In this document: positions 7,843 to 44,350 of the stretch, piece by piece | How positions within the stretch are numbered: the stretch's first letter is position 1 | How the letters are laid out: each line of letters starts with the position of its first letter | DNA from: a virus | Taxonomy: Duplodnaviria > Caudoviricetes | IMG/VR virus record: IMGVR_UViG_3300043540_000524 | Span: 1 to 51,355 of that record | Reading direction: 5' to 3' (one strand) | Length of the DNA: 51,355 nt | Position numbers and translations under genes: made by a program | Notes under the pieces: model-generated | What the model was told of the DNA's origin: nothing | Databases searched by the model: none | The model's input: the letters and a program-made list of their open reading frames with translations, nothing else

Positions 7843-8229
7843 TTAAGATCTCCTATTAATTTCTTTCATGAATGTTGAGTAAGAGAGAAGGGTGAAATCT
7901 TCCCCATTTAAAAATTGCTTAACACTGTTATGTTGCGTAAGTGCCAGTAATTTTGTATACTGGGCGTTCTTTGCAAATTCTATAATCTTTGCGTATAGCA
8001 TGTCTATTGCTACATCCCTCTCTAACGGTGAGGCATCCTTATTCGAAATGAGTCCTTCAATGATCGCAAATGAAGAATCTGTTTGATAAAGAAAAACAGC
8101 AGCAACATCTTCAACGATAAAACCAATTTCTGGGTAGTCGTAAGGTTCTGGGGATCTAATTCCTCGATCTTCATACCACTTCTCCACTTCAAAGATATCG
8201 TCTGGTCTGATTTTTCTAGCGTCTCGCAT
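7843..8229 (-). CDS. GNAT-like acetyltransferase-fold protein
   Basis: ATG at 8229 with AAAGGA RBS; FLYQTDSSFAIIEGLISN pattern; position between nozzle and ejection genes is typical of podoviruses. Confidence 0.5.
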   Translation of the reverse strand: MRDARKIRPDDIFEVEKWYEDRGIRSPEPYDYPEIGFIVEDVAAVFLYQTDSSFAIIEGLISNKDASPLERDVAIDMLYAKIIEFAKNAQYTKLLALTQHNSVKQFLNGEDFTLLSYSTFMKEINRRS

Positions 8230-8239
8230 CTTAATCCTT

Positions 8240-11200
8240 TTAAGAAATAATTTGACTCGGTCCCACTTTGTTGAGACCTTGTTTAACACCGGCAATAACC
8301 GTAATTCCAGAAAGACTTAATCCTTCACCATAAGGGGCACTTTGAGAATCTTGTATTGTTAATTGAATTGCTTGGCACTTCTGTTGTATGAGATCCAGTC
8401 TCCATTGTTCAGTAGGAGCAGGGCCTCCGTAAAGTCCGTTGTTGCCATAAACATTACCTTGTCCGTAGATGTTTCCACCACCAAATAGGGCGGTTGCATT
8501 TGCGCTAACTTGCTGGGTAACTCCTGGATTAAAGTCATAGGCTACTGATACTACTAGGTTATGTGGGGACTTATACGTACCCAGGATATAGATCTTATAG
8601 CAGCGCTGATATCCTTGCAGTCCAGCTAGTTGAAGCCACGAGGTAGTTACCTTAAGTGGGATAAATTGCCCATTATCTGTGAATTGTCCAGGTGTTTCCT
8701 GGTACACAGTCCCATTAGGATTAAAGTAAGTAAAAAGATCTTGGAAAATAACTGCGTCTGATGCATGCTGATTAGTGAAAGTACTCCACTGCTTGTAGTA
8801 GTAGTCATACATCAACGTAGTGCCAGACTCTAGGGTAAACCTAACCTGGTTCGTATTGGGAATCAGAATAGAAGACGTAATCGTCTGGGTATTAAATGGC
8901 TCTACCTCAGCTCCGATATATGACGTACTAAGGCCGCGATCCAGAAGATAAATACCCTTGGAACTCTGAAACATTAGTCCTATGGGCATAGTGGCTATCG
9001 AGTTCTGGTTCTGGCAGCCGGCATCTGTTGTAATCAAGAATGGGGTAGAGAAGTCGTTGTTGTTTCCCGTTGAATTTGGTCCCTGCCCCGCAAAATAGAA
9101 GATAGAATTGGTTTTGAATACAATGAATTTATCATCCAGAGTGAAAATTGAGGTAATGAAACCCTCTCTTGGATCAATAAAGTTTGTAAGAGAATCATTA
9201 AACTGAACAGGACTTCCAGGAACTACCTGCTGAGAGTACCAGATAGTGTTTAAATCTTCTGCAGATACTAACATAACACGATTATTGTAGGTTGTCAAGA
9301 GATTTGTTGCAGGAGCACAAATATTTTCTAGTACTCCGCCCGTAGTATAGAGCAATTCGTTACCAATGAGAGCTAAATCGGGCACGTTATCTACGATTGT
9401 CACTGTATCAACAGTAGTGTCGTTATAAGTAGGGGTTTGTACTGGGTTTACTCGATAAAAAATGGTTCCATTGGCCGTGGTTCGGTAAAGTACTATATTA
9501 ACTGGGGTTCTTGGGGCTACTTTTTGGGTAATTCTAAGGGTGTCTATAACTACAGAATTAGAGTTAGTGTCTGTGGTTGAAATAGAGCTTAGGGCATTTG
9601 AGCTCATGGTGAGGGAGTTGGTGGAGAGAGTTGCTATCGTTGCACCGGGTTGAATTCCCGGCCCGTAAAGCATCATGCCCACATATAAATCACTAGTATT
9701 AGCAATATTAGTGAGGGAATTGGACCCTGAGGTTATTGTGGCAGTGAAAGTAATACTAGGAGTCTGCGTTAGGACAGTAACAGTATTGGGGGTAGATATT
9801 GCAGGTAGACTTAAGGTAACTGTACTGCCAGAAATAGCGGTAATAGAGGTCAGGGGTTGCAAATCAAGACCTGACAGGACCTGCCCAATAAATAGCCCTG
9901 CTGTTGAGGATACGGCAGTGAGCACCTTCGATCCAGGGGTAGAAGTTGCTGTAAACACTACCGGAGTTCCTTGTGCAAAGTTCACTGTTAAAGGAACACT
10001 AGGAGCACTTCTATGTATATTTCCTTGTTGATCAGTCCATTCGTACGTGGCACTATATTGCCATTGCGGCTGCTCTACTAAGGAACCCCACCCAATTCCT
10101 CCACCACTAGATGTGACAGTGTTGGTAGGGGTTTCGGGGTATAAGAAAAACCCGTGTTCAATCACCGAGACCCCATCATACATAGAGAGGATTCCCCCTG
10201 AGATATGTAAGTTGGAACCAAGAGTGACCGAACTAAAATTAGAATTAGAAGAGAAATCAATACTTGCTTGATTTACTCCTGTTTGTGTGTAGATATTTCC
10301 GCTTTGTGCCTCAAGAAGATCTTTTACTAGATAGGCAACTTCAAACTTTGTTGCAGAAACACTGTTTACTTGTGGTAGGAGAGACTTTGCAGTTAATCCT
10401 CCTGCGTTTTGGTAGGCAATTTTTGTAATTACCCGCCCTAAACTATTCACAATGAAATATACGGGTTGTAGCTGTGAACTATAAGTAACTCCCAAGTATA
10501 TTATCCCATTGTATTGAAAACACTTTGCCCATAGACCAACAGATCTAAGAAACACTGAAGGAGTTCCCACAGTTCCCGTAGAGGTCCCAGTGTTCATTCT
10601 CACTATAGTGTTATAAGATATGGTATTTGAAACTTCATAGAAGATAGTGCCAGTAGTACCTATTACTGTGCCCGTAATATTTCTAACATTTGAAAGAGTT
10701 TCCAACGTAGTCCAAGAACCAAGCGGAGGAGTTCCTTGCAGACTAATGTTTTGTACTGTATATGCTATTGTCGTTCCATCGTAGGCAGCAATCCAAACAT
10801 ACTGTGCCATTGGATCACTAAAAATATTTATTGCAATAGATGCACTGTGCCCTGGAACTACTAAGGTGGAGGACTCAGAAAGAAATGCATTGATATAGCA
10901 AGTAGAGACACTACCACTAGCATTATTCCAAGCAAAGAATACGTTTCCATTTTTGGGATTAAGAACTGCGGCATCATAGACCGGATTACCAGCATTTAGT
11001 GTGGTGGTTATATCAACAGGGGCTTGAGGGCTCATGGGAGTTGCCACAGGAATTGCAATTCTTCTAAGCCTATTTAAACTTGTATCTACATAGGAGATTA
11101 GAAAGTATAGGCCGACGGCGTTTACCTTAGGGCTTTTAGCAACTGATCCTAAAGAAACAGAAGATACTATGATTTGATCGGTATTAGAATCAATGATAGA

Positions 11201-16071: not shown

Positions 16072-17193
16072 TTACGCACTAAGAGCGATGATGCAATTCC
16101 ACCCTGGGGCACTACATATTAAGTTCGCATAATAGCCAATTCTGAATTCCAACGCATCGGCATTACCAACGCGAAGTCCTTCAAGACCTTCCATACCGTA
16201 CGTGAGGATATGGGGCGCCTTTCCAAGCGACCGCAACTTCCACACAGACATATCTAACAAATAGGCAGTCTGTTGTTGGCAGTTTCTATCCGGCACAACC
16301 GTGATGGGGCCGTATGGAGCATGAACCGTGATGCCTTTGAAAGCGATATCGCCTTCTCCACCACGCACGTCAACATACTGAACCTTACTTCCCAACTCTT
16401 TTTCAAGAGCTGCATAGGAAGCGAAGTTCATAAAGCACATGTCGGGCTGTCCGCCTTCTCGTGCCGTTATGCTAGCGCCGTCAATAAGCGCTTCTTCGAT
16501 CGATTCGCCTGAACCATCGAACCGTACCCCTGCGAGACGGGTAACGTCTTGAGAGCGATCAACGCCCCAGAAGTTATCACCAGGAGCTGGAGCAACGGGA
16601 GGGAGCCAAGCAGCAAGTCCGCTAATCTTTAAGAATTGCGAAGTGTTTGCCGCGCCTGAAGCCCCGATGTCACCCTGTACGACCAGGAAGCTACCAACTG
16701 CGAATTGAGCAGAAGGAGTACCACTGGACGATTGGAGGATGAGCTGCGCGCTCGAACGGTTAATGTTCGTAACCACTGCAGTAGTAGTCGAAGGAACGCC
16801 ACCATCAGTAGACGTAGCAACTAAAGTCATTCCAACTTCGAATTGCACGATGTCTTGCTGATCGGAAAGAACGATCGTCATGGTCGTTCCAACTAAGGAG
16901 TAGCTTCCGATTTGACCGCGAGTACCAGTTCCACTTCGGAACAAGGCGGAAGCCAAGTCGTTCGAGATGGATCGGAACGCTGCGTCAACTTGCAACTTAC
17001 CTTGGTCTAAGAACGCACCAGCATTGTCACCAGTAGCAGCTTCCAAGAGCTCGTTACTGATAGAGGCAATGACATAGTTCGTTGTTCTGTAGACAAAGAA
17101 CGATTGCATTTGGGTAGCCGTTTGGTTGTTCTGTGCGTTCGAAAACGTAGCAGAACGTCCTTGCGGATCGCCATAGATAAGAGGCACGGGTAT
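16072..17193 (-). CDS. Major capsid protein, exon 2
   Basis: 373 aa starting IPVPLIYGDPQGRS after the intron's terminal G; follows the scaffold gene; P22-coat/HK97-like sequence character. Confidence 0.9.
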   Translation of the reverse strand: MPVPLIYGDPQGRSATFSNAQNNQTATQMQSFFVYRTTNYVIASISNELLEAATGDNAGAFLDQGKLQVDAAFRSISNDLASALFRSGTGTRGQIGSYSLVGTTMTIVLSDQQDIVQFEVGMTLVATSTDGGVPSTTTAVVTNINRSSAQLILQSSSGTPSAQFAVGSFLVVQGDIGASGAANTSQFLKISGLAAWLPPVAPAPGDNFWGVDRSQDVTRLAGVRFDGSGESIEEALIDGASITAREGGQPDMCFMNFASYAALEKELGSKVQYVDVRGGEGDIAFKGITVHAPYGPITVVPDRNCQQQTAYLLDMSVWKLRSLGKAPHILTYGMEGLEGLRVGNADALEFRIGYYANLICSAPGWNCIIALSA

Positions 17194-17853
17194 CAGTCTG
17201 TTATCGTAAGAGTTTTTTATCTCTTACTTCTTAAACTTTCGTAAGTATTTAATAGCCATTTCAAGTCTTTCTATAGAATCATCAAAGTATCCAAGTCCTG
17301 GATTACATTTGGTACATAGAAGGGCTCTTACCTGGCCTGTGCTATGGTCATGGTCTACGTGAAGCCCTCTTCGGAATTCAGTAGCGTTCCTACCACAGCA
17401 AGCACAACATCCTTTTTGCTCATCAAACATCTTGTAGTAATCTTCTACAGAGATGTTGTAGTTCTTCTTAAGATCTGATTTAAAATCAAGTCTCTTAATA
17501 ATCTCTGGGTTATCTTTTCTATGCTGTGTTCGCCATGCTTTTTTGCAGGGTTTGCACCAGCTCGATACTCCGGAGGATGTCGTGCCATCTTTCCCAAATT
17601 CAGACTCTTGCTTCTCTGACTTACATCTGGGACATACTTTTCGTTTAAGCTCAGCGTACATTATTAACCCACTAAAGGTTATTGGTCACTCTTGGTACTA
17701 TTATATTCCGTTGTTACATCGGGTTCAAGTACTACGCGTTACAGTGGCAGGAGGGTTTTGGTCTCCTGCTTACCACGGGGTTGGCATTTCAGCTTCCACC
17801 GTTTTTGACCAATTTGCTACGATAGGTTGCCCTACCGAGGTACATTATAGTTT
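17194..17853 (-). ncRNA. Group I intron (660 nt) in the major capsid gene
   Basis: Exon 1 ends in U and the intron ends in G. P1 GUAU/GUAC; P2 with GCAA loop; P3 TTGGTCA (17806-17812)/TGACCAA (17682-17688); P7 GCGTA (in 17732-17742)/TACGC (in 17652-17662). Splicing restores the frame (AAGKY|IPVPL). Confidence 0.9.
17224..17661 (-). CDS. Intron-encoded homing endonuclease, endonuclease VII-like HNH
   Basis: CPRC...CKPC Zn finger; CACC...LHVDHDHSTGQVRALLCTKCNPGLG. Confidence 0.9.
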   Translation of the reverse strand: MYAELKRKVCPRCKSEKQESEFGKDGTTSSGVSSWCKPCKKAWRTQHRKDNPEIIKRLDFKSDLKKNYNISVEDYYKMFDEQKGCCACCGRNATEFRRGLHVDHDHSTGQVRALLCTKCNPGLGYFDDSIERLEMAIKYLRKFKK

Positions 17854-18009
17854 ATACTTACCAGCCGCTCCTTCTTTACTTTCATCTTTTGGGATGATTG
17901 CAAGAAGAGGATTTCGTTTGTACACGAGGTCATTCATGTACTCTGTAGGATTGTCGTACAACTCTTTGAGCGACGCAATCTGGTTTGTAGCTGTATTAAA
18001 AATAGACAT
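17854..18009 (-). CDS. Major capsid protein, exon 1 (52 aa; spliced product ~425 aa)
   Basis: GGAG RBS, ATG at 18009, MSIFNTATNQIASLKELY...NPLLAIIPKDE...GKY. Confidence 0.88.
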
Positions 18010-18077
18010 TGTTTCTCCGCTTCGCTTCGCCACACACCGTAGTGCTAGGAAAAGAAAAGTCTTATATTGTTACTATC

Positions 18078-20932: not shown

Positions 20933-21814
20933 ATGAAATTAAAGGATATTAAGCGGTTAACAAAAGAACAAGAAATACAACTATCTGTATATGGTAAAAA
21001 GTGGTCAGAAATTAATAACTCCACTAAAGAATTAGATAAAAAAAAAGTTGAACAGTGCTTTAAAGATATGTATAAGTTTCATGGACTTGCAGAACCCAAG
21101 CACTTTGTGTATTTCGGCTCCCCCTTAGCGGGCGCGCAGGCAACAGGAAACACCACCAACATCCTATATGGGGCGCAAGACGCCGCTTGGCTCTGTTACC
21201 ATGACTTCTTTCGAGAAGAATTAAGCATCAAAGAGGAAACGGAAGCCTCCACTTTCCTTATCCGCCTTGCAAACCTTGCAGGCTGGTGTTGGGTTTCCGA
21301 CGACACAGTAGTAATCACCCCCAATCCAAAAGAGATCCACCTAATTGGGCCAGAGGATAACAAAATCTTGCACAATACTAAGGGCCCTGCAATTCTCTAT
21401 CCGGACGGATTCGCCCTGTACTTCCTAAACAACATTCAAATGACCGAAGAGCAGGTTATGACTCCAGCCGAACACATGACGGTTGAAAGTGTTATGAAAG
21501 AGCCTAACGTGGATGTGCGGCGTGAGCTCCTCAGAAAGATTGGGCTTGAAAAGTTTGTCCGAGATACTAAAGGAAAGGTATTGGACACCTATATGGCCAA
21601 ATACAACAATAAGGAGATTGAATATCAACTTATTGAAATTACCCTAAATATCTCAGAAGATGAGGTTACTACCGCCCGCGTCCTTAAAATGGACAACCCC
21701 TCCATCAATGCCCAGCACATCGAGGGAGTCGAAGACACTTGCAATACGGTTAAGGAAGCGCTAGCATGGAGACTAGGATTGGATGAGTATGTAGAGCCGG
21801 TCCAATTAACATAA
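20933..21814 (+). CDS. DUF6745-like phage protein
   Basis: LHNTKGPAILYPDGFALYFLNN; EPNVDVRRELLRKIG; TVKEALAW. Confidence 0.75.
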   Translation: MKLKDIKRLTKEQEIQLSVYGKKWSEINNSTKELDKKKVEQCFKDMYKFHGLAEPKHFVYFGSPLAGAQATGNTTNILYGAQDAAWLCYHDFFREELSIKEETEASTFLIRLANLAGWCWVSDDTVVITPNPKEIHLIGPEDNKILHNTKGPAILYPDGFALYFLNNIQMTEEQVMTPAEHMTVESVMKEPNVDVRRELLRKIGLEKFVRDTKGKVLDTYMAKYNNKEIEYQLIEITLNISEDEVTTARVLKMDNPSINAQHIEGVEDTCNTVKEALAWRLGLDEYVEPVQLT

Positions 21815-37110: not shown

Positions 37111-37449
37111 ATGAATGCTTCTAGAGAACTTGTTAACTATTTTTGTTCCAATTGGAAAAAGAAATATAGCCTTCCTTACGTTCCAAATCTACACAGAGAT
37201 CCTCAAATATTTGATGACCTATTGCAAGAGTTCTCTTCTGATTCTATAAAGAGGATGATTTCTTTCTATCTTTTTCATTTAGAAAGTATGTTTGCAGAAG
37301 AAGGGGGGCATACGCTGGGTATTTTTAGAGCTATGCTTCCCACTGTGATTGCACAGATGAAAAAAGCAGAGAAATTAGAAGAAGAAGCAAAAGCAGCAAA
37401 TAAAACCGACTACCTAAGACTTATTCAGAAGAGAAAAGAAACCAAATGA
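37111..37449 (+). CDS. Helical protein upstream of helicase (initiator/loader-like)
   Basis: AGGAGG RBS, ATG at 37111, ATGA overlap with the helicase. Confidence 0.5.
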   Translation: MNASRELVNYFCSNWKKKYSLPYVPNLHRDPQIFDDLLQEFSSDSIKRMISFYLFHLESMFAEEGGHTLGIFRAMLPTVIAQMKKAEKLEEEAKAANKTDYLRLIQKRKETK

Positions 37450-38276
37450 AAACTTTAGAAGAAGCCTCTATTAAGAATAACTGGGATTATTTCATTAACT
37501 ACCTGGATAGGAGGGTTAATGGGGTTCTCACTGGTATTGAAGAACTCGACGCCTATCTTCTAGGACTGGGGAATGTCACGGTGTTCCAGGGCGATACGGG
37601 GACGAATAAATCCACCCTCATGCTCCAAATTGCCCTCCATCAATTGGAACAAGGGCACCCCGTACTTATGCTGGATAAAGAGAATGGGCAAGGTAGAATT
37701 AGAAGCCGCCTAACATGCCAAATGAACGCTATTTCTGAAAATGACCTTTTGGTGGCCGATCGAGCCCAAAGACTTAAATGGGTAAAGCCTGTTATGGAGC
37801 TACCTTTTTTCGTCTATACAGAAAGTGTGAAGGACTTTGAGGTTATTGAGAAAAGGATAGAGGAGATGTCCCGCGCCTTCCCTACTAAGCCCCTCATGTT
37901 CATGGTAGACTCCCTACAAGCCCTGACCCCCGTAACTGAGGACCAGAGAGTTAGCCTTGAAAAATGGCTTTATTGGGCGGATAGCATGAAGATACAGTAT
38001 GACGGCCGCCTTACTATTCTAATGACTTCTGAAGTAAGAAGAGCTGCCTACGAAGCGCAAGAAGCTGTTGGTAGGGCTAAGGGTACCAATGCGGTTGAGT
38101 ACAAAGCTGAGGTTCTTTTAAACTTAAAAGAAATGAAGGATACTGGACAAATCAAAGTTGAAATAGCTAAGAATCGTGATAATATCAAAGGAGGGGTTAT
38201 TAAACTAGAAAAGATGTTCTCTGATCCTTCTAACAATAGATCATTCATGTTTAAGCTTAAAGGGAGTTTGCGATAA
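37446..38276 (+). CDS. DnaB-like SF4 helicase, ATPase domain only
   Basis: GVLTGIEELD, variant Walker A GDTGTNKST, VDSLQ, IAKNR. Confidence 0.8.
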   Translation: MKTLEEASIKNNWDYFINYLDRRVNGVLTGIEELDAYLLGLGNVTVFQGDTGTNKSTLMLQIALHQLEQGHPVLMLDKENGQGRIRSRLTCQMNAISENDLLVADRAQRLKWVKPVMELPFFVYTESVKDFEVIEKRIEEMSRAFPTKPLMFMVDSLQALTPVTEDQRVSLEKWLYWADSMKIQYDGRLTILMTSEVRRAAYEAQEAVGRAKGTNAVEYKAEVLLNLKEMKDTGQIKVEIAKNRDNIKGGVIKLEKMFSDPSNNRSFMFKLKGSLR

Positions 38277-38277
38277 T

Positions 38278-38967
38278 ATGATTTGCCAAACTTGTAAATC
38301 AGATTGCATCAGGAACGAGGCTCTAGGGAAAGAGTTTTACTATTGCCGCTCTTGCAAGAAAGAACCAGAAATAGAAACTCCCGCCCATAGTACCACTCTT
38401 TCTGGGCACGACTTTTATTCTAGAGTGCAAACTACAGATCGTTCTTCTAGTTTAGTAGGAACCCATATAGTAATTCCTGTTATGCTGTGTAGCACTCAAG
38501 GAACAGGCGGTTTTCCTTTAGTACCGCCCATTTCGACTACCGCTTGGTATATACCCATTCCCAAAAGTAGAACTATAAAACCATATCTTCGTACTTGGAT
38601 TCCGGCTTTGGATCCTAATTCTAAGGACAGTCATTTTGGTGTTAATAGAAGTTCTGATATAGTACGGCTTTCTGGAACTAGGTATATTGTTGGCGCTTCT
38701 TTGGAAGGGACTCTGGTCGAGGCGTGTAATAATATTGGAAGAGCAGGGGGGGCAGTCGATTCCATTTACATTAACCCTTTTGATAAAAAACACTTTCTCT
38801 TTTTAAATGAGATACCCCATTCCTATGGAAGAGCTATCGTTTATGAGGATCTTTCCTGCCCACAAGGATTAGTATATTGTTGCCAGCAAGATACTTGGTC
38901 ATATGATAATCATCTAAACATTTTATTGTGTTCTGGTCCTTCGGCAAACGGGGTTATTATTTTATGA
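38278..38967 (+). CDS. Zn-ribbon plus truncated major-capsid-protein paralog
   Basis: CQTC...CRSC, then segments colinear with this phage's own capsid protein (WIP...D.HFGVNRSSDIVRLSGTR vs WLP...DNFWGVDRSQDVTRLAGVR). Confidence 0.8.
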   Translation: MICQTCKSDCIRNEALGKEFYYCRSCKKEPEIETPAHSTTLSGHDFYSRVQTTDRSSSLVGTHIVIPVMLCSTQGTGGFPLVPPISTTAWYIPIPKSRTIKPYLRTWIPALDPNSKDSHFGVNRSSDIVRLSGTRYIVGASLEGTLVEACNNIGRAGGAVDSIYINPFDKKHFLFLNEIPHSYGRAIVYEDLSCPQGLVYCCQQDTWSYDNHLNILLCSGPSANGVIIL

Positions 38968-39182
38968 AAAAGCCAAAATGCAAAGAATGTGGGTCGACAA
39001 AGAGAATTAAAAAGCTGCATGCAATCATTTGTGGAAAATGTCGTATTGTTCTCCCTAATGATGAGTACGCTGAAGAAATACGTTCGGTTGTACAAGAAAT
39101 TGTAACTTTGTTAAAGATTAATAGTTATTTAAACGATCGTGGATATAGCATTATTATTGCTCCCATTGAGAAAAAAGGGTAA
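38964..39182 (+). CDS. Small Zn-ribbon protein
   Basis: CKECG...CGKC; ATGA overlap. Confidence 0.55.
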   Translation: MKKPKCKECGSTKRIKKLHAIICGKCRIVLPNDEYAEEIRSVVQEIVTLLKINSYLNDRGYSIIIAPIEKKG

Positions 39183-39218
39183 GCAATGAAAAACTTGAAA
39201 GTACACTTCTAATCCAAA

Positions 39219-41279
39219 ATGAGACCTACTAATCCAAAATATATGTGTGTGGATGTCGAGACTACAGGTCTTGATTGGACGCGGGACACTTTGCACGGTT
39301 TCGCGGTTGCTTACGAAGAAGAGGAGGCTTTCTACGTTCCTTCTTGGAATATCCCTTCGTTTGTGAAAGAGGACCTGGAAAACCCTTCAATTAAAAAGAT
39401 TGGTCACAATTTCCACGGGTTCGATGCCAAATTCATCTTTAAGAGCGGGATTAAGATACAGGGAACTTTTATTGAGAATATGGGGATATGGCAGCTAGTG
39501 GATGATACCACGCCGTTGGGCTTGAAGTGGCTATCAGAACAGCACATAGGGGCTAGCTCCTTAGATAAGAAAAGACTTTTGGATCAGGCCATAGAAAGAT
39601 CCGGAGCTAAGAATATTGCAGGGCTCTGTTTCAAAGACCTGCACGACCCTTCCCACCCATACCTAAAGGTAATTGGGGATTACTGCGAAGAGGACGCGAA
39701 TAATACCCTGTCTTTGTCTCTTCTTGGCATGCAAAAACTTAAAGAGCTAGACCAGCAACTACGAAGTAACTACAGGGTTTCTAAAACCCCGTTGGATTAC
39801 TTCAAGGAAGAGTTCACCCCATTGGAGTACGTTCTCTTTAAAATGGAGACTAAAGGGTTCCGCGTGAATATTAAAGTAATTGAAGAGCTTAAAAAAGAGG
39901 CGGAGAAGAAGAAAGAAGAAATTACCGAACGGCTTAACAGAGGCTTTAAAAAAGAGATAGAGATCATTGAAAAACAGATCTGGGAAGAGGCGGTTTCTAG
40001 AGTTGTGACCCCTAAGGCAAAAGCATCCCGTGTTCAAGGGCAAGGGAAGCTGGCTTTTAGCTGGGAAAATAATAACCACGCCGCTAAGGTATTTTTTGAA
40101 CAAGGCAACATACCAGAGGATCTGGTCACCAGGACTGAAAAAGGGTCCTATGCAACAGACAAAACCACCCTGCAAAAACTCCTGCAAGAGTTACCTAAGG
40201 AACACAAAGTAAGAAGGGCTCTCCCTCTCTATGCCGAATACAAACTTAACCAAAAGACCCTCACCACTTACACTGGGGATACTAAAAAAGGTATATATTC
40301 TAAAATAAGACAGGGAGAGGATGGAAACCATTATATTTATCCTACTTTCAGACAAACAACAAACACTGGAAGACTCGCTTGTAAATCACCTAATATGCAG
40401 AACATTCCCAGAGGAAGTAAGATTAAAGAACTCTTCATTCCCACTAATGACAACAATGTATTTGACCACTTCGATTATTCTCAAATTGAACTAAGACTTG
40501 CTGGACATCTCTCTAAAGATCCCGCTATTATTAGTTCCTATCTAAATAAAGAGGATTTGCATAAGCAGACCGCAGCAACCATTTTTGATCTTCCGCTACG
40601 GGATATAAACGACATACAGCGCCAGGGCGGAAAAACTACAAATTTCCTAACAATTTACAAAGGATCCGCTTTTAGACTTCAAGAAAGCTTGAGAGAAGGG
40701 GTAAAATTAGATTTTAGTCTGGACGAATGCAAGGAATTTATATCTCGGTTTTTTGATAAATATAGAGACTTGGATCAGTATTTGAAAAACGTCCTTTCTT
40801 TCGTTGTTAAGAACGGGTTCGTTATTTCAGAAGCAGGGAGAATGCGTCGGTTGCCTGATATCTTCTACGGAGAAGAAGGTAATTTAGACTTTAGATTAAG
40901 GCAGTTTAATGGTTCCCAAGAACAGAGACAAAAACTTATATCTATCTTGAGAGATCAGCAAATTTATAATCCCTCTGAGCAAGACATTTTCTGGCTAGCT
41001 TATAAAAAATATAACCACGCTAGTAAGCAAGCCTTCAATTTCCCAGATCAATCTTTAGCGGCTTCCTTAGCTAAGAGGGCCATGATTCAACTTGATAAAG
41101 AAGGGTTCGATATTAGAAATCAAGTACACGACGCTCTTGATATTGAACGGGCTTTGTGCGATAATGAGGCTACTTCTAAAGTTAGAAACATCATGGAAAA
41201 TGTATTTCCAGAGTGCTTAGTTCCCTTAACTACTGATTATAAGACACTTAGGAGTTTTTCTGAAGAAGATAAAGCGTAA
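39219..41279 (+). CDS. polA: DNA polymerase family A with 3'-5' exonuclease
   Basis: DVETTG, TGRL...PNMQNIP, DYSQIELR, R-x3-KTTNF-x3-Y, QVHD. Confidence 0.95.
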   Translation: MRPTNPKYMCVDVETTGLDWTRDTLHGFAVAYEEEEAFYVPSWNIPSFVKEDLENPSIKKIGHNFHGFDAKFIFKSGIKIQGTFIENMGIWQLVDDTTPLGLKWLSEQHIGASSLDKKRLLDQAIERSGAKNIAGLCFKDLHDPSHPYLKVIGDYCEEDANNTLSLSLLGMQKLKELDQQLRSNYRVSKTPLDYFKEEFTPLEYVLFKMETKGFRVNIKVIEELKKEAEKKKEEITERLNRGFKKEIEIIEKQIWEEAVSRVVTPKAKASRVQGQGKLAFSWENNNHAAKVFFEQGNIPEDLVTRTEKGSYATDKTTLQKLLQELPKEHKVRRALPLYAEYKLNQKTLTTYTGDTKKGIYSKIRQGEDGNHYIYPTFRQTTNTGRLACKSPNMQNIPRGSKIKELFIPTNDNNVFDHFDYSQIELRLAGHLSKDPAIISSYLNKEDLHKQTAATIFDLPLRDINDIQRQGGKTTNFLTIYKGSAFRLQESLREGVKLDFSLDECKEFISRFFDKYRDLDQYLKNVLSFVVKNGFVISEAGRMRRLPDIFYGEEGNLDFRLRQFNGSQEQRQKLISILRDQQIYNPSEQDIFWLAYKKYNHASKQAFNFPDQSLAASLAKRAMIQLDKEGFDIRNQVHDALDIERALCDNEATSKVRNIMENVFPECLVPLTTDYKTLRSFSEEDKA

Positions 41280-41607
41280 AAAGTCTAGGAAGGCTAGCAA
41301 GTATCCTTGGTTCTATAAGTTCCTGTTTGCGGCCGCTCGTAGGACGTTTAGATGGTCTCCAGAAAGAAGGGCTGTTAAGGCTAGGGCGAAAGATAGGTGC
41401 GAGAAATGCCACAAAAAGGTAGCAGATATTGTGGTAGATCATATTGAACCTGTCATTAGTCCTTCTGCAGGATTTATATCTTGGGATACTTACTATTTGC
41501 GCTTGTTTGTGAATCAGGATCAAATGCAGGGTTTGTGTAAAAAGTGTCATTCTGAAAAAACACGGGCAGAAAATGCAGAAAGAAGGCTGAATGCAAAAAA
41601 AGAATAA
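41260..41607 (+). CDS. HNH endonuclease (115 aa, CTG start)
   Basis: AGGAG 5 nt before CTG; CEKC...VDHIEPV...QGLCKKCHSEKT; absent from the ORF track. Confidence 0.8.
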   Translation: MKKIKRKKSRKASKYPWFYKFLFAAARRTFRWSPERRAVKARAKDRCEKCHKKVADIVVDHIEPVISPSAGFISWDTYYLRLFVNQDQMQGLCKKCHSEKTRAENAERRLNAKKE

Positions 41608-42325
41608 GATTTTACTCTATGACATTGAAACCTCACCACTTATAACGTACAACTGGGCTCTGTATGACGAAAGACCAATTGCAATGGAACAGGATTGGCA
41701 ACTTCTAACCTTTTCGTATAAGTTTTTGGGTGAAAAAGAGGTTTTTGGCCATACCCGACTAGAGTTTAAAGATAAGACAGATAAATCATTAACAAAAAAG
41801 CTGTGGAGAGTATTAAATTCTGCCGATGTTCTCGTTGGCCATAATTCAATATCCTTCGACTCTAAGAAGAGTAATGCTAAGTTCGCAGAGTACGATCTCC
41901 CACCAATCAAATGTATGCAGATTGATACAAAAAAAATTGCAAAGTCCCTTTGCAATTTCACATCCAATTCTTTAGATGCTCTAGGGAAGTTATTAGGTTG
42001 CGGAGAGAAGAAGAAGCACAGCGGGTTTGACATGTGGAAGAAATGTATGCGAGGGGATAAGAAAGCATTTGCAGAAATGCTCTCCTACAACAAAATGGAT
42101 GTTATACTTCTGGAAAAGATCTACATGAAGTTGCGCCGCTATGGAAGAGCCCTCCCCAATGCAAGTTTGCTAGAAACGGGTAAAATGGGTTGTGCTGCTT
42201 GTGGTAATTCAAAGATAGTTTCTAAGGGCGTTTGGGTAACAGAAAAAACCATACAGGAAAAGTACTCTTGCTCTAAGAAAAATTGCGGATATATTTTCGT
42301 AGGTAGACGGGGGTTAGTGGGATGA
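41591..42325 (+). CDS. RNase H-like (DEDD/YprB-type) exonuclease with Zn ribbon
   Basis: YDIETS, GHNSISFD, YNKMDV, CAACG...C. Confidence 0.85.
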   Translation: MQKKNKILLYDIETSPLITYNWALYDERPIAMEQDWQLLTFSYKFLGEKEVFGHTRLEFKDKTDKSLTKKLWRVLNSADVLVGHNSISFDSKKSNAKFAEYDLPPIKCMQIDTKKIAKSLCNFTSNSLDALGKLLGCGEKKKHSGFDMWKKCMRGDKKAFAEMLSYNKMDVILLEKIYMKLRRYGRALPNASLLETGKMGCAACGNSKIVSKGVWVTEKTIQEKYSCSKKNCGYIFVGRRGLVG

Positions 42326-42813
42326 AACTAGTTCCTCTCACACAAGGCAAGTTTGCCAAGGTGGATAACGAGGATTGGATTAGGGTTTCCCAATATAATT
42401 GGCATTTCAACGCCAAGTATGCTAAAAGAAAAGTGCTGAGGGAAGAAACGGGCGGTTTAGTAAAAAGACAAGGGATGCATCGGTTTATAATGGGTATTGA
42501 TGATCCCTCAGTACTAGTGGATCATATAAATAATGATACTTTGGATAATAGAAAACAAAATTTGAGATTGTGTGGACATACTCAAAACTGTTTCAATAGA
42601 AAACCACGTAGTAAAATAGGTTTAAAAGGGGTTAATTTGGATGGTAGTAGGTACAGGGCTCGCATACAAGGTACTTCTCTAGGAAACTTTAGGACTGCCA
42701 AAGAGGCTGCTATGGCTTATAATAAAGCGGCTTTGAAATTATATGGAAGATTTGCTTGGTTAAATTATATTGCGGAGGATCATTATGAAAAACCCAAGAA
42801 GAAAAAAACCTAA
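42322..42813 (+). CDS. HNH-AP2 homing endonuclease
   Basis: MHRFIM...VDHINNDTLDNRKQNLR; LGNFRTAKEAAMAYNKAA. Confidence 0.9.
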   Translation: MKLVPLTQGKFAKVDNEDWIRVSQYNWHFNAKYAKRKVLREETGGLVKRQGMHRFIMGIDDPSVLVDHINNDTLDNRKQNLRLCGHTQNCFNRKPRSKIGLKGVNLDGSRYRARIQGTSLGNFRTAKEAAMAYNKAALKLYGRFAWLNYIAEDHYEKPKKKKT

Positions 42814-43401: not shown

Positions 43402-43929
43402 ATGAGTGTATTAACATTTGAACGAACAGTCACATTTTGTGGGCCTATAAATGACGAAACCACAGGGCTTCTAATCCACGCCCTGTCTTCACTAAACGCA
43501 TATGAAGATGAAAAACCCCTGCTCATCCTCAACTCACCAGGAGGCAACTTAGACGATGGTATTGCCTTATATGACTACATAAGAACCCTGCCCTACAAAC
43601 TCACCTGCCATATCTTTGGGCAAGCAAGCTCGGCCGCATCTGTTATGCTTCAAGCCTGCGATAAAAGACTCATTGCAGAAAACGGGGCGGTAATGATCCA
43701 TAGGGGTGAGCTAAGCATTCCTCCTACACATCCCGACGACGCAGAACGAATGTTGCAAGCTCAAAATAGACTACAAGAAATAATGTTGCAAATATACTTA
43801 AAACACTGTAAACTTTCTGAAAAGGACTTAAAAAAAGCTCTTTTATTTTCCTCCTACTTTCTCGGAGAAGAGGCGGTTAAAGCAGGGCTAGTTGATGGGG
43901 TACTGGCAAATGGAACAATTAAAGTTTAA
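43402..43929 (+). CDS. clpP: ClpP-like protease
   Basis: LNSPGG, GQASSAAS, MIH, EAVKAGLVD. Confidence 0.85.
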   Translation: MSVLTFERTVTFCGPINDETTGLLIHALSSLNAYEDEKPLLILNSPGGNLDDGIALYDYIRTLPYKLTCHIFGQASSAASVMLQACDKRLIAENGAVMIHRGELSIPPTHPDDAERMLQAQNRLQEIMLQIYLKHCKLSEKDLKKALLFSSYFLGEEAVKAGLVDGVLANGTIKV

Positions 43930-44350
43930 AAGAATTACAATTGGTGCTTCCCTTCCTAATAAACAAAAGACAGGAGATGCGGGGTTCGACTTAACAGTTA
44001 CGTCCCGTACCATAAGTATGCACTTTGTGGAATATTGGTTTGGGGTGGCTGTTGAAATACCTGAAGGTTACGTTGGCCTTCTCATACCAAGAAGCTCCAT
44101 AACTGATACCAATCTTTTTATGGGAAACTCTATTGGTGTTATTGATAGTAATTTTAGGGGTGAGCTACGGGCTCGGTTTAAGCGGGATGGGGGAGGGGGA
44201 AAAATGCCGTCCGTTGGCGATCGTATAGCCCAATTGGTAGTGGTACCTCTCCTCACTTTTGAGCCGGTATGGGAAAAAACCCTTTCTAAAACGGAAAGAG
44301 ATTCATTGGCCTTTGGTAGTAGTGGAGGAATTAATGATGAAGAAAAATAA
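43910..44350 (+). CDS. dut: dUTPase (trimeric)
   Basis: AGFDL, PRSS, GVIDSNFRGE, GDRIAQL, R-x3-FGSSG. Confidence 0.93.
   Translation: MEQLKFKRITIGASLPNKQKTGDAGFDLTVTSRTISMHFVEYWFGVAVEIPEGYVGLLIPRSSITDTNLFMGNSIGVIDSNFRGELRARFKRDGGGGKMPSVGDRIAQLVVVPLLTFEPVWEKTLSKTERDSLAFGSSGGINDEEK

What the first reader, a model, noticed from the sequence alone, without database searches (positions are those of the whole stretch)
38278..38967. Miniature capsid-protein paralog fused to a Zn ribbon, placed in the replication operon
Seen: the 229 aa ORF aligns by eye, in order, with this phage's own MCP. Matching segments (paralog vs MCP): HIVIPVMLCSTQG vs YIPVPLIYGDPQG; LRTWIPALDPNSKDSHFGVNRSSDIVRLSGTRY vs LAAWLPPVAPAPGDNFWGVDRSQDVTRLAGVRF; SLEGTLVEA...GRAGGAVDSIYIN vs SIEEALIDG...AREGGQPDMCFMN; YGRAIVYEDLSCPQGLVY...W vs YGPITVVPDRNCQQQTAY...W; LLCSGPSANGVI vs LICSAPGWNCII. 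About half the MCP is deleted, an N-terminal CxxC...CxxC is added, and the gene lies between helicase and PolA on the opposite strand from the virion genes. Established: some defence systems (CapRel, Lit) are triggered by capsid proteins. Inference: an assembly-incompetent capsid domain made before the real MCP could be a decoy for capsid-sensing immunity, a poison for competitor or satellite capsids, or a repurposed regulator.
Basis: partly seen in the sequence, partly recalled or inferred. Interest (0 to 1): 0.82.

Follow-up and report, generated by a model that had tools for sequence, protein, structure and literature searches.

The report
Zinc-ribbon mini-capsid protein of phages
An uncultured phage makes, alongside its DNA-replication genes, a small protein that is a cut-down copy of its own head-shell protein joined to a zinc-binding knob; it belongs to a conserved, undescribed family that probably imitates unassembled shell protein, but what it does has not been tested.

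Summary
ORF 38278-38967 (+, 229 aa) is a real gene. It starts 2 nt after the helicase stop and ends in an ATGA overlap with a small zinc-ribbon ORF in front of PolA.

Residues 104-229 are homologous to the C-terminal half of this phage's SU10-type HK97 capsid protein (BLASTP E 2e-11; profile-profile E 1.1e-39). The AlphaFold2 model (pLDDT 87) finds SU10 capsid chains first.

It keeps the axial (A) domain and an E-loop-like hairpin. It has lost the N-arm helices, spine helix, inserted domain and P-domain hairpin, so it should not be able to build a shell. A 4-Cys ribbon and a floppy linker replace the N-arm.

It is not a recent duplicate or a relic. I count 28 intact relatives in metagenomes, and the data favour one origin. 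A sister phage has it at the same place.

Between the two phages it is the most diverged of 43 shared proteins (29% identity; capsid protein 82%). Every strongly conserved column in its core is also conserved in true capsid proteins.

Best reading (about 0.4): a soluble mimic of unassembled capsid protein, perhaps an immune decoy. Assembly control is the main rival. Function is untested.

This scan earlier noted other capsid-piece plus zinc-ribbon fusions on unrelated phage DNA.

The parts
38278..38967 (+). Whole gene: 229-aa zinc-ribbon mini-capsid protein (stop TGA 38965-38967)
   Evidence: ORF. The sister-phage ortholog is in the same slot. 28 mini-type relatives. The public gene call (P0001) starts only at V50 and misses the ribbon.
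38263..38266 (+). GGAG ribosome-binding core, 11 nt before the ATG and inside the end of the helicase gene
   Evidence: Read from the sequence. The helicase stop TAA is at 38274-38276, so stop and start are 1 nt apart.
38278..38367 (+). Residues 1-30: 4-Cys zinc ribbon (C3, C6 ... C23, C26)
   Evidence: Two beta hairpins (E9-15, E18-23), pLDDT 93-95. Mean identity to 13 canonical family members is 47%, the best-kept part. The same module is fused to other C-terminal domains in L002-L011.
38368..38406 (+). Residues 31-43: flexible linker
   Evidence: pLDDT below 50 for residues 35-43. This region varies greatly in length in alignment A1.
38407..38586 (+). Residues 44-103: short helix plus beta hairpin. 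Weak, colinear counterpart of the capsid protein's N-arm end and E-loop strands.
   Evidence: Model elements H46-49, E63-68, E88-93 against capsid elements H35-39, E53-61, E81-88. HMM hits of 12 bits or less, always colinear.
38587..38964 (+). Residues 104-229: capsid A-domain core (WIP...GVNRSxDxxRLSG, GRAGG, DxxCP...DTW, CSGPSANG)
   Evidence: BLASTP E 2e-11 and 1e-13. hhalign E 1.1e-39. Foldseek top hits are SU10 capsid chains. 33 columns are conserved in both families and none is mini-specific.
37446..38276 (+). Upstream DnaB-like/RecA-fold helicase (276 aa)
   Evidence: Pfam AAA_25 and DnaB_C; PHROG 19. 74% identical to the sister phage's helicase.
38964..39182 (+). Downstream 72-aa zinc-ribbon ORF, whose start overlaps the mini gene's stop (ATGA)
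   Evidence: Sequence. A homolog sits in the same slot in G001, also with an ATGA overlap: 35% identity, E 3e-7.
39219..41279 (+). DNA polymerase I (686 aa)
   Evidence: tblastn hits to phage PolA. 66.5% identical to the sister phage's PolA.
16072..17193 (-). Major capsid protein, exon 2 (SU10_MCP family)
   Evidence: Pfam PF17236, E 4.9e-8. The frame reads ...IPVPLIYGDPQG. 83% (genome search) or 81.6% (BLASTP best hit) identical to the sister phage's uninterrupted 431-aa capsid protein.
17194..17853 (-). 660-nt insert in the capsid gene carrying an endonuclease VII-type ORF (17224..17661)
   Evidence: Pfam Endonuclease_7, E 2.4e-25. The sister phage lacks the insert. Rfam gave no group I intron match at E <= 0.01, so the intron class is unverified.
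17854..18033 (-). Major capsid protein, exon 1 (N-arm up to ...AAGKY)
   Evidence: ORF. Capsid-family HMM positions 5-46, E 3.9e-7. Compared by eye with the G001 capsid protein.

Best explanation
SHOWN. The gene encodes a conserved accessory protein with three parts: an N-terminal 4-Cys zinc ribbon, a disordered linker, and a cut-down copy of the SU10-type HK97 major capsid protein. The copy keeps the axial (A) domain and an E-loop-like hairpin. It has lost the N-arm helices, the spine helix, the inserted beta domain and the P-domain hairpin. It sits in a tightly coupled run of helicase, mini-capsid, small zinc-ribbon ORF and PolA in two related phages.

INFERRED. Without the parts that join capsomers it cannot build a shell, so it acts as a soluble look-alike of unassembled capsid protein, made together with the replication genes. 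Its conserved positions are exactly those conserved in real capsid proteins, and everything else drifts very fast. It therefore most likely works by presenting the conserved capsomer-forming part of the capsid protein to whatever normally grips it, and competing for that partner.

My preferred partner is a host immune sensor of HK97 capsid proteins, with the zinc ribbon on its tether holding or disabling the bound sensor. That would make it an anti-defence decoy. The last step is the least supported.
For: Homology to the capsid protein.

Fold: pLDDT 87.0, pTM 0.75. All 8 PDB hits with E <= 0.001 are SU10 capsid chains. Of the 8 BFVD hits with E <= 0.001, 6 are named major capsid or head proteins and 2 have no informative name.

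Lost parts: read from the secondary structure of the mini model against the model of the sister capsid protein (pLDDT 86.7), together with the hhalign gaps.

A real, selected gene:
- A single clade is favoured.
- A syntenic ortholog in G001 with the same overlapping starts and stops.

Accessory and fast-evolving:
- Lowest identity (29.0%) of 43 reciprocal-best pairs with coverage above 0.6 (median 53.5%). The capsid protein is the highest at 81.6%.
- Long terminal branches across the family.
- Present in 1 of 80 PolA-related IMG/VR loci and in 0 of 23 genome-contig loci that hold an SU10-type capsid gene.

Mimic-like constraint: column conservation correlates between 28 minis and 92 capsid proteins (Spearman 0.69 over 118 columns). 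33 columns are strongly conserved in both, 8 only in capsid proteins and none only in minis.

Tethered design: the ribbon is the best-kept part (47% identity against 29% for the core and 19% for the linker and N-part). It also occurs fused to unrelated C-terminal domains in related phages.

Plausible targets exist. A 2026 preprint (passages read) reports that Avs7, Avs8 and Avs10 wrap the HK97 capsid protein, and that Avs7 chiefly engages the conserved penton/hexon-forming region of the A-domain.
Against: No partner, host or defence system is known for this phage. No expression data exist.

The conserved columns shared with capsid proteins may simply hold the fold together rather than form a recognised surface. 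I could not map them on a structure, because model coordinates are not given and both VIA-align libraries were unavailable.

A decoy that binds an Avs-type sensor would be expected to trigger it unless something blocks oligomerisation. That step is pure inference.

Fast divergence also fits relaxed constraint.

The same plus-strand block contains a ClpP-family protease that PHROGs labels head maturation protease, so a morphogenetic role is not excluded by position.

Confidence: 0.4

Rival explanations
1. Assembly modulator. Through its A-domain and E-loop hairpin, the mini protein joins or caps capsomers of the phage's own capsid protein (to hold it unassembled until scaffold and portal are ready, or to set head geometry), or poisons capsomers of a co-infecting relative or satellite.
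For: The A-domain is the part of HK97 proteins that packs round the capsomer axis, and E-loops make intra-capsomer contacts (passages of PMC8569155). A capsid-protein homolog that redirects assembly is known: Ccm. The conserved columns are the capsid family's own. A ClpP-family or head-maturation-type protease lies in the same strand block.
Against: The supposed partner, the capsid protein, is the slowest-evolving protein of the pair of phages (81.6%), while the mini is the fastest (29.0%). That is not expected for a tight, essential interface with the phage's own capsid protein. The gene is missing from nearly all other phages with this capsid type that I could examine, including L003-L009, whose capsid proteins are close relatives.
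Confidence: 0.25
2. Regulator. The zinc ribbon binds nucleic acid or the transcription/translation machinery, and the capsid-like domain senses free capsid protein. Late-gene output or replication would then be coupled to head assembly.
For: The ribbon is the most conserved part, is tethered by a flexible linker, and recurs with other C-terminal domains. Weak, sub-threshold similarity of family members to TFIIB-type ribbons (Pfam E 0.027-0.039, below the curated cut-off).
Against: The proteins are near-neutral to acidic (median pI 6.05 in 28 members). No Pfam DNA- or RNA-binding family passes its threshold. 5 of 28 members have a different CxC..CxC cluster and 4 have no Cys module at all, although some of these may be truncated gene calls.
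Confidence: 0.1
3. Minor virion component, for example a special vertex or portal-proximal subunit present in a few copies.
For: It is a capsid-protein relative. Separate vertex paralogs exist in other phages (T4 gp24; recalled, not tested here).
Against: It lacks the spine helix and P-domain hairpin that make inter-capsomer contacts. It lies away from the structural genes on the other strand, coupled to helicase and PolA. It evolves far faster than any structural protein compared.
Confidence: 0.07
4. Replication accessory. The capsid-derived domain has been re-used as a helicase or polymerase partner, and the ribbon plays a primase-like zinc-binding role.
For: It is translationally coupled between helicase and PolA in both phages. 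No primase turned up among the 10 plus-strand ORFs I scanned with PHROGs.
Against: No column is conserved only in the mini family, so no new active or binding site is visible in the core. The fold is HK97, not a polymerase or primase fold. The gene is absent from 79 of 80 PolA-related loci.
Confidence: 0.05
5. Functionless remnant of a capsid-gene duplication.
For: It is the most diverged shared gene.
Against: The ORFs are intact in both phages at 29% identity. There are 28 intact relatives with the same architecture and motifs, a confident fold and conserved coupling to neighbours.
Confidence: 0.03

Closest known systems
SU10-type HK97-fold major capsid proteins (Pfam SU10_MCP PF17236; phage SU10 capsid, PDB 7Z45/7Z46/7Z48/7Z4A; PMC9509320)
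   Same: The C-terminal 126 residues are homologous (hhalign E 1.1e-39). The best structural matches are SU10 capsid chains. They share the motifs W-[IL]-P, GD-F-G-[VI]-[DN]-R-S-x-D-x-x-R-L-[AS]-G, REGG, D-x-x-C-P and Q-x-D-T-W, and the C-terminal strand.
   Different: About 185 of 431 positions remain. There are no N-arm helices, spine helix, inserted domain or P-domain hairpin. A zinc ribbon and linker are added. The Pfam model itself does not match the mini protein at E <= 0.1. The mini profile finds no PDB chain by sequence at E <= 0.01. The gene lies among replication genes.
Ccm of cos-type SaPIs (SaPIbov5), a capsid-protein homolog that takes the pentamer positions and redirects helper-phage head shape (PMC8569155; abstract and passages read)
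   Same: A diverged homolog of an HK97 capsid protein that is not the shell-builder itself and cannot form capsids alone. It shows that capsid-protein copies can act on assembly.
   Different: Ccm keeps the whole HK97 fold (N-arm, E-loop, P-domain with spine helix, A-domain), is built into the shell, and is encoded by a satellite against its helper. The mini protein is truncated, carries a zinc ribbon, and is encoded by the phage itself beside its helicase.
Vertex paralogs of capsid proteins such as T4 gp24 (recalled from general knowledge; not searched here)
   Same: A second, diverged copy of the capsid protein in the same genome.
   Different: Vertex paralogs are full-length, late-expressed virion proteins next to the capsid gene. 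This one is half-size, zinc-ribbon-fused and in the replication block.
Earlier notes of this scan: capsid-piece plus zinc-ribbon accessory proteins in unrelated uncultured phages (e1-5788320, e1-5594744, e1-5641533, e1-6179286, e1-6111358; AI notes, unchecked)
   Same: The same design principle: a fragment of the virus's own capsid protein joined to a small zinc ribbon and encoded among accessory or early genes.
   Different: Those copies hold other pieces (insertion domain, N-arm or Gol-like strip, last strand, a 35-letter paste) and belong to other capsid lineages. None shares sequence with this protein (one search found no look-alike). Here the piece is the whole A-domain and the family has 28 members.

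Membership tests
HK97-fold major capsid protein, SU10_MCP (PF17236) | Significant sequence or profile similarity to the family | tested here: met
   Met for the C-terminal half only: BLASTP E 2e-11 and 1e-13; hhalign probability 100, E 1.1e-39; capsid-family HMM domains i-E 1.4e-21 and 3.6e-5. The Pfam model PF17236 itself gives no hit at E <= 0.1.
HK97-fold major capsid protein, SU10_MCP (PF17236) | Complete HK97 fold: N-arm, E-loop, P-domain with long spine helix and beta hairpin, A-domain | tested here: not met
   The mini model has no long helix between residues 44 and 103 and no counterpart of capsid elements H100-136, E144-225 or 381-412. TM-score to SU10 chains, normalised to the query, is only 0.33-0.43 among the 8 hits with E <= 0.001.
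HK97-fold major capsid protein, SU10_MCP (PF17236) | Forms the virion shell | not testable with these tools
   No virion proteome exists; the phage is uncultured.
Ccm-type assembly-redirecting capsid homologs | Full-length HK97 fold able to occupy a capsomer position | tested here: not met
   Truncated as above.
Ccm-type assembly-redirecting capsid homologs | Encoded by a satellite that parasitises a helper phage | tested here: not met
   The gene is encoded in a 51,355-bp phage record rated 100% complete. The record has its own terminase, portal, capsid and tail genes.
C4 zinc ribbon | Two CxxC knuckles on two beta hairpins | tested here: met
   C3-x2-C6 ... C23-x2-C26. Strands 9-15 and 18-23, pLDDT 93-95. 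14 of 28 family members have the same pattern. Pfam ribbon models score only below threshold. PHROG 5602 and 13972 match the ribbon in 6 and 3 of 24 members. Metal binding itself was not tested.
Phage anti-defence decoys or mimics of a sensed phage protein | Binds and neutralises a host sensor of the mimicked protein | not testable with these tools
   Host and defence repertoire are unknown. Only the resemblance to the sensed protein class is shown.

The most novel reading that the evidence does not exclude
Phages of this lineage make, together with their replication proteins, a zinc-ribbon-tethered copy of the capsid A-domain. This copy pre-loads and disables host receptors that recognise the conserved capsomer-forming region of HK97 capsid proteins (Avs7/8/10-like or similar) before the real capsid protein appears. 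Together with the other capsid-piece plus zinc-ribbon fusions noted by this scan, it would define a general, undescribed class of 'self-mimic' anti-defence proteins.
Probability: 0.2. Interest if true: 0.9.

Novelty: new variant of a known kind. Interest (0 to 1): 0.62.

Why it matters
Capsid proteins are among the main things bacterial immunity recognises in phages, yet no phage-encoded imitation of a capsid protein is described in the papers I could search. Five full-text searches found nothing closer than the satellite protein Ccm.

This family offers a clean, testable case:
- a small, confidently folded protein that keeps only the conserved axial domain of the shell protein;
- a zinc knob on a tether;
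- a place among the replication genes;
- the fastest divergence in the genome, while its parent is the slowest.

If it is a decoy, it would show how phages blunt sensors of conserved folds. If it controls assembly, it would be the first phage-encoded counterpart of satellite capsid-redirecting proteins. Either way it gives a defined reagent for probing what binds unassembled HK97 capsid protein, and a new domain architecture for annotation.

Tried and rejected
Searches for relatives and context that found little or nothing:
- Megablast of 37446-41279 and tblastn of the mini protein, the capsid exon 2, P0005 and P0016 against 50,697 phage records: no match. PolA finds only relatives at or below about 30% identity.
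- The search for homologous proteins with the single protein found only the window's own 180-aa gene call. With profile A1 it found 8 proteins, none adding context.
- The search for related loci in viral contigs: the single mini protein and single PolA found nothing, and A2 found nothing. A3 found G001 plus 10 ribbon-only loci. A5 (PolA) gave 80 loci, of which only G001 has the gene.
- The metagenome scan with A3 gave the G001 contig again plus 8 matches to the ribbon end only.
- The genome-contig scan with A3 found none. A motif scan there gave 61 loci: 23 with capsid genes, 38 unrelated, no mini.
- Pfam and PHROGs: no family for the capsid-like body.
- ESM Atlas: best scores 0.75-0.76, below the level that counts as a lead.
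- PDB by sequence: none.
- Rfam on the capsid-gene insert: none.
- The promoter and terminator scan was not above shuffles (35 against 29.7; 14 against 11.0), so no operon boundaries are claimed from it.

P0002 (1737 aa, 12 stretches) is a leucine-rich-repeat NLR-like protein. I reject it as a repeat artefact.

Complex prediction on the sister phage's capsid protein plus its mini protein: no verdict (score 0.08, mark 0.32). This is neither for nor against binding.

The look-up of sequencing runs: one DNA holder, possibly the source sample; no RNA holder listed.

The free quick tree put the window protein next to a capsid protein on a long branch. I do not read that as a separate origin, because the constrained single-clade tree is better.

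I considered and rejected a link to the capsid-gene insert, because the sister phage has the mini gene but no insert.

dN/dS was not attempted. The only DNA pair is at 29% protein identity, so synonymous sites are saturated.

Supplementary files of the papers were not opened.
Full report
THE GENE

The window is a complete 51,355-bp virus record (CheckV 100%). ORF 38278..38967 (+) encodes 229 residues. Its ATG lies one base after the TAA of a DnaB-like helicase (37446..38276), with GGAG 11 nt upstream. Its TGA overlaps the ATG of a 72-aa zinc-ribbon ORF (38964..39182), which is followed by PolA (39219..41279). The public gene call for this contig starts only at V50 and so misses the ribbon. Relatives show that the ribbon belongs to the protein.

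THE CAPSID GENE

The capsid gene is on the minus strand and is interrupted:
- exon 1 ends ...AAGKY (to 17854);
- a 660-nt insert carries an endonuclease VII-type ORF (17224..17661; Pfam E 2.4e-25);
- exon 2 resumes IPVPLIYGDPQG... (17193..16072; Pfam SU10_MCP E 4.9e-8).

Rfam did not recognise the insert as a group I intron at E <= 0.01. The sister phage G001 has the same capsid protein uninterrupted: 431 aa, 83% identity over the 371 residues of exon 2.

IS THE LIKENESS REAL?

Yes.
- BLASTP of the ORF against exon 2 gives 49.3 bits, E 2e-11, 28 of 95 identical.
- Against the G001 capsid protein it gives 55.8 bits, E 1e-13, 37 of 131 identical.
- A profile of 24 family members against a profile of 35 capsid proteins gives probability 100 and E 1.1e-39 over 146 columns. 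Mini columns 99-244 align to capsid columns 232-418, with two deletions in the mini.
- Segment 1 is only weakly supported. The mini-family HMM gives a colinear hit on capsid residues about 20-105 in 11 of 24 capsid ORFs, never above 12 bits.

FOLD AND WHAT IS MISSING

AlphaFold2 on the 24-row alignment gives mean pLDDT 87.0 and pTM 0.75. Only residues 35-43 fall below 50.

Foldseek against the PDB gives 8 hits with E <= 0.001, all chains of the SU10 capsid. The best is E 4.5e-5, and one aligns 148 columns at rmsd 3.2 A. HK97 and other capsids follow. Against BFVD there are 8 hits with E <= 0.001. Six are named major capsid or head proteins, and two have no informative name.

The sister capsid protein's model (pLDDT 86.7, pTM 0.85) has these elements:
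- N-arm helices 8-39;
- E-loop strands 53-61 and 81-99;
- a spine helix 100-136;
- an inserted beta domain at about 144-225;
- the A-domain at 246-380;
- a long P-domain strand 405-418;
- a last strand 425-428.

The mini protein has these elements:
- two ribbon hairpins (9-23);
- a floppy linker;
- a short helix (46-49);
- a hairpin (63-68 and 88-93);
- the A-domain elements (104-228).

So the N-arm helices, spine helix, inserted domain, most of one A-domain helix and the P-domain hairpin are gone. Naming these regions is my reading of secondary structure against the standard HK97 plan (described in PMC9509320 and PMC8569155; passages). I had no coordinates and no aligned ranges.

A FAMILY, NOT A ONE-OFF

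An exhaustive HMMER search of 1.84 billion representatives found 212 proteins at E <= 0.001, of which 150 were listed. From the 151 proteins stored by then, I classed rows on the homologous core columns.

A row counted as mini-type if it was 300 aa or shorter and had at least 130 of 145 core columns filled. This gave 27 rows, and I added P0128 (125 columns) by hand, for 28 in all. There were 92 capsid proteins of 390-440 aa. Shorter capsid fragments were left out.

N-terminal modules among the 28:
- 14 have a CxxC...CxxC ribbon;
- 5 have a CxC...CxC cluster;
- 5 have other Cys patterns;
- 4 have none, and some of these may be truncated calls.

Tree results:
- The tree used 126 columns, the 28 minis and 45 capsid proteins. 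The other 47 capsid proteins were left out, the included ones being a few named rows plus a random draw. It is poorly resolved.
- The mini label needs only 3 changes, against 22.5 in shuffles.
- Mini branches are much longer than capsid branches.
- Forcing one mini clade gives a log-likelihood 70.65 higher than the free quick tree (p-AU 0.987).

One old origin is therefore the simplest reading. No member was found in 50,697 GenBank phage records with three different queries.

CONTEXT AND RATE

Only one other genome with the gene could be read: G001, a 54,925-bp IMG/VR contig. There the 270-aa ortholog again overlaps the helicase stop (ATGA), is followed by a 64-aa zinc-ribbon ORF (35% identical to the window's, E 3e-7), and then by PolA.

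Across the two genomes, 43 reciprocal-best pairs have coverage above 0.6 (49 pairs remained after I removed shadow ORFs). Median identity is 53.5%. The mini protein is lowest at 29.0% and the capsid protein highest at 81.6%. Helicase is 74.1% and PolA 66.5%.

The gene is in 1 of 80 PolA-related viral loci and in 0 of 23 genome-contig loci with an SU10-type capsid gene. It therefore behaves as an accessory gene.

WHAT IS CONSERVED?

Over 118 comparable columns, conservation in the 28 minis tracks that in the 92 capsid proteins (Spearman 0.69). 33 columns are strongly conserved in both, 8 only in capsid proteins (mostly in the shortened helix) and none only in minis. So no new site is visible in the core. 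The protein is kept as a faithful copy of the capsid family's own invariant features.

The ribbon is the best-conserved part. Against 13 canonical members, identity is 47% for the ribbon, 29% for the core and 19% for the linker and N-part. The same ribbon, at 48-55% identity, is fused to unrelated C-terminal domains, or stands nearly alone, in 10 of 11 viral loci found with alignment A3. Several of those phages have closely related capsid genes. The family is near-neutral to acidic (median pI 6.05).

HOW IT MOST LIKELY WORKS

Shown: it is a tethered zinc ribbon plus an assembly-incompetent capsid A-domain, conserved, fast-evolving, and coupled to the replication genes.

Inferred: it imitates unassembled capsid protein and competes for something that binds the conserved part of that protein.

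A host sensor is my preferred partner for three reasons:
- the rate contrast with the capsid protein;
- the patchy distribution;
- such sensors are now reported to engage exactly the conserved A-domain region (preprint 10.64898/2026.01.04.697583; passages read).

I give this about 0.4. The decoy sub-step alone I put at about 0.2.

The main rival is action on capsid assembly (0.25). It has a precedent in Ccm (PMC8569155), and a ClpP-family or head-maturation-type protease (43402..43929) lies in the same strand block. Regulator, virion component, replication accessory and relic are less likely, for the reasons given in their entries.

COMPARISON AND NOVELTY

The protein derives from the SU10-type capsid family, but it fails the family's defining complete fold and the Pfam model. 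It differs from Ccm and from vertex paralogs in being truncated, ribbon-fused and phage-encoded among replication genes.

Neither Pfam nor PHROGs holds the capsid-like body. Five full-text searches found no description of such a family. I saw only listings, except for the passages cited.

This scan's own earlier, unchecked notes report other capsid-piece plus zinc-ribbon fusions in unrelated phages. None shares sequence with this one. I did not test those notes. They suggest a recurring design rather than giving independent support.

VERDICT

This is a new, well-populated variant of HK97 capsid-protein derivatives, and its function is open.

Noticed in passing
window 17194-17853 (-), ORF 17224-17661: The major capsid gene is interrupted by a 660-nt insert with an endonuclease VII-type ORF. 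The sister phage G001 has no insert. Rfam gave no group I intron hit at E <= 0.01, so the class of the insert is unverified.
   Followed up: partly
L008/L009 5689-5907 and 6997-7920 with a GIY-YIG-like ORF at 8076-8678; L127 3256-4582; L118 798-2040: Capsid genes of this family also appear split in other phages and prophage-like contigs, sometimes next to homing-endonuclease-like ORFs. The capsid gene may be a recurrent target of mobile inserts.
   Followed up: no
window 43402-43929 and 43892-44350 (+): A ClpP-family protease (Pfam E 4e-26; PHROG 'head maturation protease' E 8.5e-26) lies next to a dUTPase in the plus-strand replication/nucleotide block, far from the other head genes. I found no other protease, though I did not scan every ORF.
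   Followed up: partly
window 38964-39182 (+); L001 10810-11004: A small zinc-ribbon ORF (72 and 64 aa, 35% identical) is conserved between the mini-capsid gene and PolA, with overlapping start and stop codons in both phages. Its function is unknown.
   Followed up: partly
L003-L010 (e.g. L005 9950-10561), protein P0146: The same zinc ribbon (about 51% identical over 45 residues) heads a different 188-203-aa protein with a second Cys cluster. That protein is seen on 53 contigs, in phages whose capsid proteins are close to the window's. The ribbon is a shuffled module.
   Followed up: partly
window 41431-41607 and 42322-42813 (+): An HNH-like fragment and a full HNH endonuclease (PHROG 99, E 7e-28) flank the exonuclease gene. 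Together with the capsid insert, this makes the genome rich in homing-type endonucleases.
   Followed up: no
L002 7347-7889 and 9020-9562; L003-L006 (e.g. L005 9036-9734): Proteins of 180-232 aa are made largely of GNAWVxGNAxV-type repeats of variable number, just upstream of the ribbon-headed gene in related phages.
   Followed up: no
window 20933-21814 (+): A 293-aa protein matches Pfam DUF6745 (E 8.4e-20) at the head of the rightward early block.
   Followed up: no
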